The position numbers and the translations under genes were made by a program. DNA of 64,000 bases, from the IMG/VR virus record IMGVR_UViG_3300047491_001507; one strand, written 5' to 3'. The stretch comes from a virus. This document shows, piece by piece, positions 45,107 to 45,417 of the stretch (positions are counted from its first letter, which is position 1; each line of letters starts with the position of its first letter). The notes under the pieces are model-generated. The model did not search any database, was not told where the DNA came from, and saw only the letters and a list, made by a program, of their open reading frames with translations.

Positions 45107-45134
45107 TTGTTCTCTACCAGATTTCTGGTATACT
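45107..45134 (+). promoter_or_regulatory. sigma70-like promoter with extended -10 (TTGTTC-16-TGgTATACT)
   Basis: Lies inside the 5' part of the ORF-track ORF 45107..45358, arguing that that part is not coding. Confidence 0.4.
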
Positions 45135-45175
45135 GGGACATTGTGTCTGTTTCTTTAGAGCGAAGGAGTCGAAGG

Positions 45176-45358
45176 ATGTTGGTTTTGACACGGAGAAAAG
45201 ACGAGTCGATCATGATTGGCGACAACATTGAAATTTTGGTTGTCGAGACGATGAAGGATCGAGTCAGGATTGGAATCAGATGTCCCAGTGAAATTCCTGT
45301 GCATCGTAGGGAGGTTTACGAAGCAATTAAAAAAATAGAAAATGGTCCTAAAGACTAA
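45176..45358 (+). CDS. csrA: carbon storage regulator CsrA/RsmA homolog
   Basis: MLVLTRRKDESIMIGDNIEILVVETMKDRVRIGIRCPSEIPVHRREVY aligns along its length with E. coli CsrA ([48 protein letters not shown]). AAGGAG RBS 6 nt upstream. Confidence 0.75.
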   Translation: MLVLTRRKDESIMIGDNIEILVVETMKDRVRIGIRCPSEIPVHRREVYEAIKKIENGPKD

Positions 45359-45375
45359 AGATTGTGCGAAATTTT

Positions 45376-45417
45376 AAGCGGCAAGAATCTCAAAAATTCT
45401 TGCCGCTTTTTTTTTTG
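45376..45417. terminator. bidirectional rho-independent terminator
   Basis: AAGCGGCAAGAAT-ctcaaaa-ATTCTTGCCGCTT followed by T10; convergent genes on both sides. Confidence 0.7.

What the first reader, a model, noticed from the sequence alone, without database searches (positions are those of the whole stretch)
45107..45417. Phage-encoded CsrA/RsmA homolog with its own extended -10 promoter and terminator
The 61-aa ORF aligns along its length with CsrA, including the conserved L4/R44-region residues (MLVLTRRKDESIMIGDNIEILVVETMKDRVRIGIRCPSEIPVHRREVY). The longer ORF-track version starts inside a recognisable promoter (TTGTTC-16-TGgTATACT). The true start is the ATG at 45176, behind an AAGGAG RBS. 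A viral CsrA could hijack host post-transcriptional control of motility, biofilm or carbon flux, or sponge host sRNAs or FliW antagonists.
Basis: partly seen in the sequence, partly recalled or inferred. Interest (0 to 1): 0.55.

Follow-up and report, generated by a model that had tools for sequence, protein, structure and literature searches.

The report
CsrA translation regulator in huge phage
A roughly 306-kb phage carries its own complete copy of the bacterial RNA-binding translation regulator CsrA as a stand-alone gene; the gene is real, but phage CsrA genes are already known, so this is a new example and not a new kind of thing.

Summary
Window 45176-45358 (+) encodes a 60-aa protein that matches CsrA end to end (Pfam 82 bits against a cut-off of 27; two NCBIfam equivalog cut-offs passed). 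An AAGGAG ribosome-binding site lies 7 nt upstream. A strong terminator follows (13-bp stem, T9, z = -4.6). The promoter TTGTTC-16-TGgTATACT is present but is no more than chance would give. The surroundings are phage-like (UvsX, gp32, DnaB; source contig 306 kb). An independent assembly is 100% identical over 15.5 kb, so a frameshift is unlikely. The closest relatives are cellular CsrAs: 75% identity to an uncultured low-GC sediment bacterium and 63-72% to Planctomycetota. GenBank phage CsrAs are at most 52% identical. The RNA-contact residues are intact. The protein has E at position 55, where fliW-linked relatives nearly always have N, and it is shorter than any of them. It also has unusual substitutions in the beta3-beta4 turn. 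My best reading is a host-derived, FliW-independent translational repressor that probably also represses itself. Phage csrA has been reported since 2020, has its own PHROG family, and occurs in GenBank jumbo phages. This is a new member of a known kind, of modest interest.

The parts
45107..45112 (+). -35-like hexamer TTGTTC (3 of 6 matches to TTGACA). Its TTG is also the start codon of the mechanical 83-aa ORF.
   Evidence: Sequence read; ORF list. Not listed by the promoter scan.
45126..45134 (+). Extended -10 box TGgTATACT, 16 nt after the -35-like hexamer. The predicted transcription start is near 45141.
   Evidence: The motif occurs twice in the window against 1.4 expected. The other copy (30645) has the same geometry upstream of the 883-aa MVP-shoulder gene.
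45141..45175 (+). Predicted 5' leader of about 35 nt with no significant structure. It holds a direct repeat CGAAGGA (45161-45167 and 45170-45176). This puts GGA motifs at -11 and -2 relative to the ATG; a third lies at +17 (45192-45194). These are candidate autoregulatory CsrA sites.
   Evidence: Fold z = 0.18. The GGA count in -45..+25 is 4, which ranks in the top 2 of 82 genes. The 150-nt window starting at 45123 holds 7 GGA, against a mean of 2.2 and sd of 1.55.
45163..45168 (+). Shine-Dalgarno sequence AAGGAG, 7 nt upstream of the ATG.
   Evidence: gene-start survey.
45176..45358 (+). csrA coding sequence: 60 aa plus the TAA stop.
   Evidence: Pfam PF02599 82.2 bits. NCBIfam equivalog cut-offs passed. 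PDB CsrA/RsmA/RsmE chains match at E about 1e-12. The AF2 model's top 15 PDB matches are all CsrA-family structures.
45376..45417 (+). Intrinsic terminator: 13-bp stem (45376-45408) plus a T9 run. It lies between csrA and the convergent gene 45425-45871 (-).
   Evidence: dG = -22.5 kcal/mol, z = -4.58.

Best explanation
SHOWN. Window 45176-45358 is an intact csrA gene. It has a strong SD and a strong terminator of its own, and a plausible promoter of its own (a 'moron'-type layout). It lies in an accessory region of a phage genome of about 306 kb. The protein keeps the residues that CsrA/RsmE use to contact GGA-containing RNA. It lacks the C-terminal features found in CsrAs encoded next to fliW.

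INFERRED. The gene was captured from a bacterial host lineage; the closest relatives are an uncultured GC-36% Gram-negative sediment bacterium and Planctomycetota. During infection it is expressed as a homodimer that binds GGA motifs at or near Shine-Dalgarno sequences and blocks ribosome loading. It has E at position 55 instead of N and stops at residue 60, so the host's FliW antagonist should not be able to switch it off. It would therefore impose repression of the host CsrA regulon outside the host's checkpoint. In FliW-type systems that regulon is above all flagellin, hence motility. The three GGA motifs across its own ribosome-binding region suggest that it also limits its own translation, as E. 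coli CsrA does.

The confidence of 0.55 is for the whole chain. Taken separately, it is about 0.95 that this is a functional-looking CsrA gene, about 0.85 that the element is a phage, and about 0.5 for FliW-independent repression of host and own mRNAs.
For: Family membership:
- Pfam 82 bits, model positions 1-52 of 53; NCBIfam equivalogs passed; PHROG 9500.
- PDB CsrA/RsmA/RsmE match at E = 1e-12 to 3e-11.
- The AF2 model (pLDDT 75) has strands at 11-14, 18-25 and 30-35 and a helix at 44-55. Its top 15 PDB matches are all CsrA-family structures.

RNA-contact residues:
- L2, L4, R6, R7, I40, V42, H43, R44, E46 and V47 are conserved relative to 145 cellular relatives.

Host-derived origin:
- 75% identity over 52 aa to L119, and 63-72% to Planctomycetota (Phycisphaerae, Sedimentisphaerales, Pirellulales).
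- At most 52% identity to any GenBank phage CsrA.
- GC of L119 is 36.4% and GC of the window is 36.1%.

FliW independence:
- Among 183 related loci, fliW lies directly upstream of csrA in 61.
- In unique fliW-linked CsrAs (n = 56), position 55 is N in 51 and never E. Their length is 69-151 aa, median 83.
- In unlinked CsrAs (n = 77), position 55 is K in 42, N in 9 and E in 8. Their median length is 67 aa.
- The phage protein has E55 and is 60 aa.
- N55 is required for FliW binding, and N55D abolishes the interaction in B. subtilis (bioRxiv 10.1101/2020.07.02.184341, read).
- No FliW is encoded in the 64-kb window.
- CsrAs on IMG/VR viral contigs are likewise short (58-77 aa). Only 2 of the 17 listed have N at this position, and none of the 16 with enough upstream sequence to judge has fliW upstream.

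Autonomous expression unit: SD, terminator and promoter-like boxes.

Autoregulation hint: GGA enrichment over its own start region.

Real sequence: an independent assembly is 100% identical.
Against: - There are no expression or binding data.
- The host is unknown, so it is not shown that the host has FliW, flagella or a CsrA regulon.
- The 60-aa core cannot be placed phylogenetically. It is 69-75% identical to both fliW-linked and unlinked cellular CsrAs.
- An N is present one residue later (N56), so a one-residue shift could in principle still give a FliW contact.
- The beta3-beta4 turn deviates from nearly invariant cellular residues: R26M, G27K, K29R, plus T25, E24, L21 and A36C. RNA specificity or stability may therefore differ from canonical CsrA.
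- GGA enrichment in the leader is modest, and part of it comes from the SD itself and from an Arg-Arg codon pair.
- No related phage carrying a syntenic csrA was found, so conservation under selection cannot be shown.
- The promoter is not above chance.
Confidence: 0.55

Rival explanations
1. The phage uses CsrA mainly on its own transcripts, as a RegA-like temporal translational repressor. It would bind GGA-containing Shine-Dalgarno regions of a class of phage mRNAs, including its own, and shut them off as infection proceeds. Leaderless phage genes would escape.
For: - The replication module is T4-like (UvsX, gp32). From general knowledge, T4 has such a repressor, RegA.
- 60 of 82 genes have SD-like sequences that contain or resemble GGA. 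About 22 lack an SD, and several carry a TATAAT box 5-7 nt before the ATG, so they look leaderless. CsrA could discriminate between these two gene classes.
- csrA's own start region is among the most GGA-dense in the window.
- The MVP-shoulder gene shares the same -10 box and the same AAGGAGTC SD.
Against: - No recurrent GGA-hairpin motif was identified in the phage leaders.
- A GGA inside an SD is expected in any SD-using genome, so enrichment is not diagnostic.
- csrA sits among ORFan accessory genes, not in a regulatory cassette.
- The protein is so close to cellular CsrAs (up to 75%) that host targets remain the simplest expectation.
Confidence: 0.25
2. The phage protein is a decoy. It would titrate the host's CsrA antagonist (FliW or a CsrB-like sRNA) and thereby free host CsrA. 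Alternatively it would form inactive heterodimers with host CsrA (dominant negative).
For: - High identity to cellular CsrAs (63-75%) makes heterodimerisation conceivable.
- The unusual beta3-beta4 turn could impair function while the dimer interface is kept.
Against: - FliW titration is disfavoured. Position 55 is E, and the protein ends at residue 60, shorter than every fliW-linked CsrA examined (minimum 69 aa).
- All RNA-contact residues are intact, which argues against an inactive decoy.
- No CsrB/RsmY/RsmZ-type RNA was detected in the window.
- From general knowledge, such sRNAs are established mainly in Gammaproteobacteria and not in the candidate host groups.
Confidence: 0.1
3. The gene is a recently captured passenger with no adaptive role for the phage, or the contig is a cellular or plasmid element and not a phage.
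For: - No related phage with a syntenic csrA was found, and both neighbours are ORFans.
- No capsid, portal or terminase gene was identified inside the window. The only hint is a sub-threshold Gp23 hit of 21.5 bits.
- The window also carries host-like sugar-modification genes.
Against: - The gene's GC (40%; GC3 45%) is close to the phage's 36%, and lower than that of most of the fetched relatives (median 53%). The sole low-GC close relative is L119.
- The ORF is intact, and it has a strong SD and a dedicated strong terminator.
- UvsX, gp32, DnaB, a phiEco32-type ligase and a tRNA, with no cellular housekeeping genes in 64 kb, fit a jumbo phage.
- csrA recurs in many unrelated phages (86 GenBank records).
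Confidence: 0.1

Closest known systems
CsrA/RsmA/RsmE of Gammaproteobacteria (E. coli CsrA PDB 1Y00; P. aeruginosa RsmA 1VPZ and 7YR6; RsmE-RNA complex 2JPP)
   Same: Same family and fold, and the same length class (about 60 aa with no C-terminal extension). The beta1 and beta5 RNA-contact residues are conserved (L2, L4, R6, R7, V42, H43, R44, E46). Identity is 40-48%.
   Different: In those bacteria the antagonists are CsrB/RsmZ-type sRNAs, and none was detected here. This gene is carried by a phage. Its beta3-beta4 turn reads TMKDR in place of the G-containing turn (VKGNQ in E. coli).
FliW-CsrA-flagellin partner-switch module (B. subtilis; Geobacillus complex PDB 5DMB), including its Planctomycetota versions
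   Same: The closest sequence relatives include fliW-linked CsrAs (L119 75%, L105 71%). The core is 69-75% identical. I14 is conserved.
   Different: No fliW lies beside the gene or anywhere in the window. Position 55 is E, not the N found in 51 of 56 fliW-linked relatives. The protein is 60 aa, against 69-151 aa for those relatives. It is therefore not a member of the FliW-partnered subclass by the features tested.
Short, fliW-unlinked CsrA paralogues of Planctomycetota (e.g. P0010, 66 aa, next to the mreBC region)
   Same: 65-74% identity, a short tail, a residue other than N at position 55, and a stand-alone gene.
   Different: Those proteins carry a Lys/Glu-rich tail (REKSEKKEEQ...) and the conserved DVRGDK turn. 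The phage protein has KKIENGPKD and ETMKDR instead.
Known phage-, plasmid- and ICE-borne CsrAs: PHROG 9500; P. aeruginosa F116- and D3-type phages (RsmM); Vibrio crassostreae phages; jumbo Xanthomonas phages PhiXhv-15/16; plasmid and ICE homologues such as Legionella CsrT
   Same: A mobile element carries a short CsrA. 86 GenBank phage records hold one. The phenomenon was described by Sobrero and Valverde in 2020 (PMC7366521), who found it in 30 of 2517 phage genomes. It also occurs in 227-229-kb jumbo phages.
   Different: Identity to these is only 41-52%, so this looks like an independent capture from a different host lineage. Here the gene is a monocistronic unit with its own terminator, whereas in the Vibrio phages it sits inside an early operon.
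T4 RegA translational repressor (functional analogy only)
   Same: A small phage-encoded protein that would repress translation by binding ribosome-binding regions, possibly including its own (inference from general knowledge).
   Different: The fold and family are unrelated. No evidence was obtained here that phage mRNAs are targets.

Membership tests
CsrA/RsmA family (Pfam PF02599; TIGR00202) | Full-length match to the family HMM above the curated cut-offs | tested here: met
   PF02599 scores 82.2 bits against 27, over model positions 1-52 of 53. NF002469 scores 77.0 against 73, and TIGR00202 scores 72.7 against 70.1.
CsrA/RsmA family (Pfam PF02599; TIGR00202) | Conserved RNA-contact residues on beta1 and beta5 (L2, L4, R6, R7, V42, H43, R44, E46, I/V47) | tested here: met
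   All are present. They are invariant or nearly invariant in the alignments of relatives and in the alignment to PDB CsrAs.
CsrA/RsmA family (Pfam PF02599; TIGR00202) | Fold: five beta-strands plus a C-terminal helix, forming an interleaved homodimer | tested here: inconclusive
   The AF2 monomer model (pLDDT 75) shows beta2-beta4 and helix 44-55. Its top 15 Foldseek PDB matches are all CsrA family. Strands beta1 and beta5 form only in the dimer, and the dimer could not be modelled.
CsrA/RsmA family (Pfam PF02599; TIGR00202) | Binds GGA motifs in RNA and represses translation | not testable with these tools
   This needs EMSA, a reporter assay or CLIP. Only candidate sites in its own leader were located.
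FliW-partnered CsrA subclass | fliW encoded adjacent to csrA or elsewhere in the element | tested here: not met
   An HMM built from 19 FliW sequences found beside related csrA genes finds nothing in the window; the best hit has E = 0.96. Pfam found nothing in the neighbouring genes. Only 64 kb of the 306-kb contig was searched.
FliW-partnered CsrA subclass | Asn at position 55 (contact with FliW Q124) | tested here: not met
   The phage protein has E55, with N at 56. Fliw-linked relatives have N in 51 of 56 and never E.
FliW-partnered CsrA subclass | C-terminal extension beyond about residue 60 | tested here: not met
   The protein is 60 aa. The shortest fliW-linked relative is 69 aa and the median is 83 aa.
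Phage moron (autonomous accessory transcription unit) | Own promoter upstream and own terminator downstream of a non-essential gene | tested here: inconclusive
   The terminator is met strongly. The promoter-like TTGTTC-16-TGgTATACT is present but not above chance. The host's promoter type is unknown.
Tailed (jumbo) phage genome | Phage hallmark genes and no cellular housekeeping genes | tested here: inconclusive
   UvsX-like (phrog_97, 176 bits), gp32-like SSB, a DnaB-like helicase, a PolA-like fragment, a phiEco32-type ligase and one tRNA are present. The contig is 306,208 bp. No capsid, portal or terminase gene was found within the window.

The most novel reading that the evidence does not exclude
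A huge phage of an uncultured sediment bacterium (Planctomycetota or a GC-36% Gram-negative anaerobe) has converted a host FliW-controlled CsrA into a 'checkpoint-blind' version. The conversion would consist of losing N55 and the C-terminal docking tail and remodelling the beta3-beta4 turn. The phage would then use this protein to lock host flagellin and motility translation off, and perhaps to separate SD-led mRNAs from its own leaderless ones. That would be a viral strategy for overriding a protein-based post-transcriptional checkpoint.
Probability: 0.2. Interest if true: 0.55.

Novelty: new member of a known kind. Interest (0 to 1): 0.3.

Why it matters
It adds a clean, well-delimited example of a virus carrying a global post-transcriptional regulator, from a host group with almost no phage biology: Planctomycetota-like or other uncultured sediment bacteria. 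The cellular relatives fall into two classes, one fliW-linked with N55 and a long tail, and one unlinked and short. The phage copy falls in the second class. This gives a concrete, testable idea of how a phage could escape the host's FliW checkpoint. It also corrects the public annotation: the JGI call is truncated to 48 aa, and the Logan gene calls list no gene there. It does not open a new category, because phage, plasmid and ICE csrA genes are already documented.

Tried and rejected
- Exact look-up of the 60-aa product and of the 48-aa JGI product found no contig on record. The source was reached instead through the neighbouring protein P0121.
- I searched for related phages with a syntenic csrA using both neighbours in IMG/VR. 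No relatives were found. The 193-aa neighbour has no homologue in 5.8 billion proteins other than itself. CsrA-bearing IMG/VR contigs share no flanking genes with the window, apart from an unrelated sugar epimerase.
- The metagenome and GTDB scans did not contain the source contig or any csrA more than 75% identical, so dN/dS or population variation could not be analysed.
- I considered the convergent 148-aa neighbour as a possible FliW, since the size is similar. There is no Pfam, PHROG, NCBIfam or custom FliW-HMM signal, so I rejected this.
- Rfam found only the tRNA and no Csr/Rsm sRNA. The GGA-density scan found no intergenic sponge-like cluster.
- The csrA leader has no significant secondary structure.
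- I tried to name the phylum of the closest cellular relative (L119/L185) through its DnaB-like protein. Only the protein itself was returned. The context shows a cellular Gram-negative anaerobe with Rnf and LPS genes, still of unknown phylum.
- The flagellin leader of one Planctomycetaceae fliW-csrA-flagellin locus (L022) showed no obvious GGA pair by eye. I did not pursue this.
- Phylogenetic placement of the 60-aa core into the fliW-linked or the unlinked class is not possible, because identities are equal (69-75%).

Full report
**1. What is in the sequence**

The stretch 45107-45417 contains the following features in order.
- TTGTTC at 45107-45112.
- A 16-nt spacer.
- TGgTATACT at 45126-45134.
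- A leader of about 35 nt.
- AAGGAG at 45163-45168.
- ATG at 45176.
- A 60-codon ORF ending with TAA at 45356-45358.
- A 13-bp G+C-rich hairpin at 45376-45408, followed by nine T residues to 45417.

The ORF list starts the frame at the TTG of the -35-like hexamer, which gives 83 aa. That start has no support. The family HMM aligns from the Met at 45176 (model positions 1-52 of 53). Essentially all of the roughly 180 homologues recovered begin with MLVL. The AAGGAG box lies at the canonical distance from this ATG.

The JGI gene call for the same sequence (P0001) starts at Met13 and is 48 aa, which would delete strand beta1. The Logan gene set has no call there at all.

**2. Is it more than chance?**

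- *Protein:* yes. Pfam CsrA scores 82.2 bits against a cut-off of 27. Two NCBIfam equivalog cut-offs are passed. PHROG 9500 'CsrA-like regulator' scores 68.9 bits. Solved CsrA/RsmA/RsmE chains match at E about 1e-12. An AF2 model (pLDDT 75) has all of its top 15 PDB matches in the CsrA family.
- *Terminator:* yes. dG is -22.5 kcal/mol and z is -4.58, and none of 200 shuffles folds as well.
- *Promoter:* not demonstrably. TGNTATACT occurs twice against 1.4 expected, and the -35 hexamer matches only 3 of 6 positions. The second TGGTATACT (30645) is also 42 nt upstream of an ATG preceded by AAGGAGTC, that of the 883-aa MVP-shoulder protein. The two genes may therefore share a promoter and leader class.
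- *Sequence quality:* an independent assembly (Logan, SRR35144455) is 100% identical over window 39527-55060. This argues against assembly error or a frameshift.

**3. Context**

- The window has uniform GC of about 36% and one tRNA-Tyr.
- It carries a T4-type replication and recombination set: a UvsX-like recombinase (176 bits), a gp32-like SSB, a DnaB-like helicase and a PolA-like fragment.
- It also carries a phiEco32-type COOH-NH2 ligase and an amidoligase. From general knowledge, both are common in jumbo phages.
- It holds many ORFans.
- The source contig is 306,208 bp. The best phage match of the DnaB-like protein is a 595-kb uncultured phage.
- No virion gene lies within the window, so 'phage' is well supported but not proven here.
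- csrA sits in an accessory region of short, independently oriented genes: a MazG-like protein, a zinc-ribbon protein, ORFans and a secreted protein with a PEP-CTERM-like tail. Its two neighbours have no homologues anywhere.

**4. Relatives**

- GenBank phages hold CsrA in 86 records, mostly P. aeruginosa and Vibrio phages of 45-66 kb. The set also includes the 227-229-kb Xanthomonas and Erwinia jumbo phages. All are at most 52% identical.
- In contrast, cellular CsrAs reach 63-75% identity. The GTDB hits are overwhelmingly Planctomycetota: Phycisphaerae, Sedimentisphaerales, Pirellulales and Planctomycetaceae.
- The single best hit (L119/L185, 75% over 52 aa) belongs to an uncultured bacterium with GC of 36.4%, equal to the phage's GC. 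Its context (Rnf, LPS genes, fapA-fliW-csrA-secG) is clearly cellular.
- The gene is therefore most simply an independent capture from a host lineage. These taxa are the best host candidates, but that is inference.

**5. Two cellular classes, and where the phage copy falls**

I built a FliW HMM from sequences found beside related csrA genes. With it, fliW lies directly upstream of csrA in 61 of 183 loci.

| Class (unique sequences) | n | Residue at position 55 | Length (aa) |
|---|---|---|---|
| fliW-linked | 56 | N in 51, R in 5, never E | 69-151, median 83 |
| unlinked | 77 | K in 42, N in 9, E in 8 | median 67 |
| phage copy | 1 | E (N at 56) | 60 |

In B. subtilis, N55 is the residue that contacts FliW Q124. 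N55D abolishes binding, and both residues are invariant where the two proteins co-occur (bioRxiv 10.1101/2020.07.02.184341).

The phage protein ends at residue 60, and the window encodes no FliW. CsrAs on IMG/VR viral contigs show the same trend: they are 58-77 aa, 2 of the 17 listed have N at this position, and none of the 16 with enough upstream sequence has fliW.

The phage CsrA therefore does not meet the tested features of the FliW-partnered subclass.

**6. Other features of the protein**

All beta1 and beta5 RNA-contact residues are kept. The deviations from the cellular consensus cluster in the beta3-beta4 turn and just after it. The percentages give the frequency of the consensus residue among 145 cellular relatives.
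- T21 to L.
- D24 to E.
- I25 to T.
- R26 to M (R in 98%).
- G27 to K (G in 98%).
- K29 to R (K in 97%).
- A36 to C (A in 99%).

A recent survey lists position 25 among the determinants of CsrA functional specificity (PMC13443453). Altered RNA preference is therefore possible but untested.

**7. Its own mRNA**

- The predicted leader is unstructured.
- It contains the direct repeat CGAAGGA-gt-CGAAGGA, which places GGA motifs at -11 and -2. A third lies at +17.
- The -45..+25 region has 4 GGA, which ranks in the top 2 of 82 genes.
- The 150-nt window starting at 45123 is among the five most GGA-dense on its strand (7, against a mean of 2.2 and sd of 1.55).
- This fits autorepression, which is known for E. 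coli csrA (general knowledge). It is weak evidence, because the SD and an Arg-Arg codon pair contribute.

**8. Mechanism**

Most likely, this is a host-derived, autonomously expressed CsrA dimer that binds GGA at ribosome-binding sites and represses translation without being subject to FliW. It would impose the host CsrA programme (flagellin and motility in FliW-type systems) and damp its own synthesis.

The rivals are these.
- A RegA-like repressor of the phage's own SD-led mRNAs. The window has both SD-led and apparently leaderless genes.
- A decoy or dominant-negative protein. This is disfavoured by the intact RNA-binding residues and the missing FliW determinants.
- A neutral passenger gene, or a non-phage contig.

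**9. Novelty**

Phage-borne csrA was surveyed in 2020, in 30 of 2517 phage genomes (PMC7366521). It has its own PHROG family and is annotated in GenBank jumbo phages. This is a new member of a known kind. The new elements are the host group, the independent capture, and the FliW-independent signature. Interest is modest.

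Noticed in passing
window 16140-19888 (+): Four or five adjacent paralogous genes are built from at least 14 copies of a module of about 60 aa. The module ends in '..YTN.K.G.YDPEFDKQIRKL(R/A)P(D/H)WF..TA.E'. Only sub-threshold Pfam hits (Ribosomal_S13_N) were found. The function of this repeat-protein family is unknown.
   Followed up: partly
window 30696-33347 (+), with upstream box at 30645-30653: An 883-aa protein carries a Major Vault Protein 'shoulder' domain (PF11978, 71 bits), which is unusual in a phage. It is preceded by the same TGGTATACT box and AAGGAGTC Shine-Dalgarno sequence as csrA, at the same spacing. 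The listed TTG start at 30642 is probably wrong; ATG 30696 fits better.
   Followed up: partly
window 40793-40801 (-), 48686-48694 (+), 56055-56063 (-): Three identical TGCTATAAT boxes lie 5-7 nt upstream of the ATGs of genes 39361-40785, 48700-50625 and 55371-56048, which suggests leaderless mRNAs. About 22 of 82 genes lack any SD-like sequence, including several neighbours of csrA. TGNTATAAT occurs 8 times against 4.6 expected.
   Followed up: partly
window 45949-46752 (+): A 267-aa protein has an N-terminal signal-like segment and a C-terminal 'PTPEP - hydrophobic helix - RKRSL' tail that resembles a PEP-CTERM/exosortase sorting signal. This was seen by eye; no Pfam or NCBIfam hit was found. 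It may be a clue to a Gram-negative host that has an exosortase.
   Followed up: partly
window 45176-45358; proteins P0001 and locus L184: The public gene calls are wrong here. JGI annotates a 48-aa 'carbon storage regulator' starting at Met13. The Logan gene set for the identical contig has no gene between the two neighbours.
   Followed up: yes
loci L119 and L185 (MAG 'bacterium isolate 4571-419_metabat2_scaf2bin.021'; ENA contig of 297 kb): This is the closest cellular CsrA (75% over 52 aa; it has Y43 in place of H43). It lies in a fapA-fliW-csrA-secG cluster of a GC-36.4% Gram-negative anaerobe with Rnf and LPS genes. Its DnaB-like protein had no homologue at E <= 1e-20 among the 8000 candidates scored. 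This lineage is a candidate host, of unknown phylum.
   Followed up: partly
loci L019-L183 (related cellular csrA loci): Planctomycetota-type CsrAs split cleanly into two classes. One is fliW-linked, with N55 and a length of 69-151 aa. The other is unlinked and short, mostly with K55, for example next to the mreBC region.
   Followed up: partly
window 1-64000 (e.g. 36320-37459, 48700-50625, 50610-51260, 59036-60580, 63158-end): The window holds a substantial set of sugar-modification genes: a DegT-type aminotransferase, several glycosyltransferases, a sulfotransferase and an NAD-dependent epimerase/dehydratase. It also holds a subtilase (51279-52214) and a MazG-like pyrophosphohydrolase (43826-44221). 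These suggest modification of the host surface or the virion.
   Followed up: no
window 22162-28261 (+): Pairs of adjacent ORFs have equal sizes: 151/152 aa at 22162 and 22631; 137/137 aa at 26711 and 27135; 112/112 aa at 27582 and 27923. The sequences upstream of 23717 and 27582 share a near-identical stretch. This suggests local gene duplications around the tRNA-Tyr (26598-26683).
   Followed up: no
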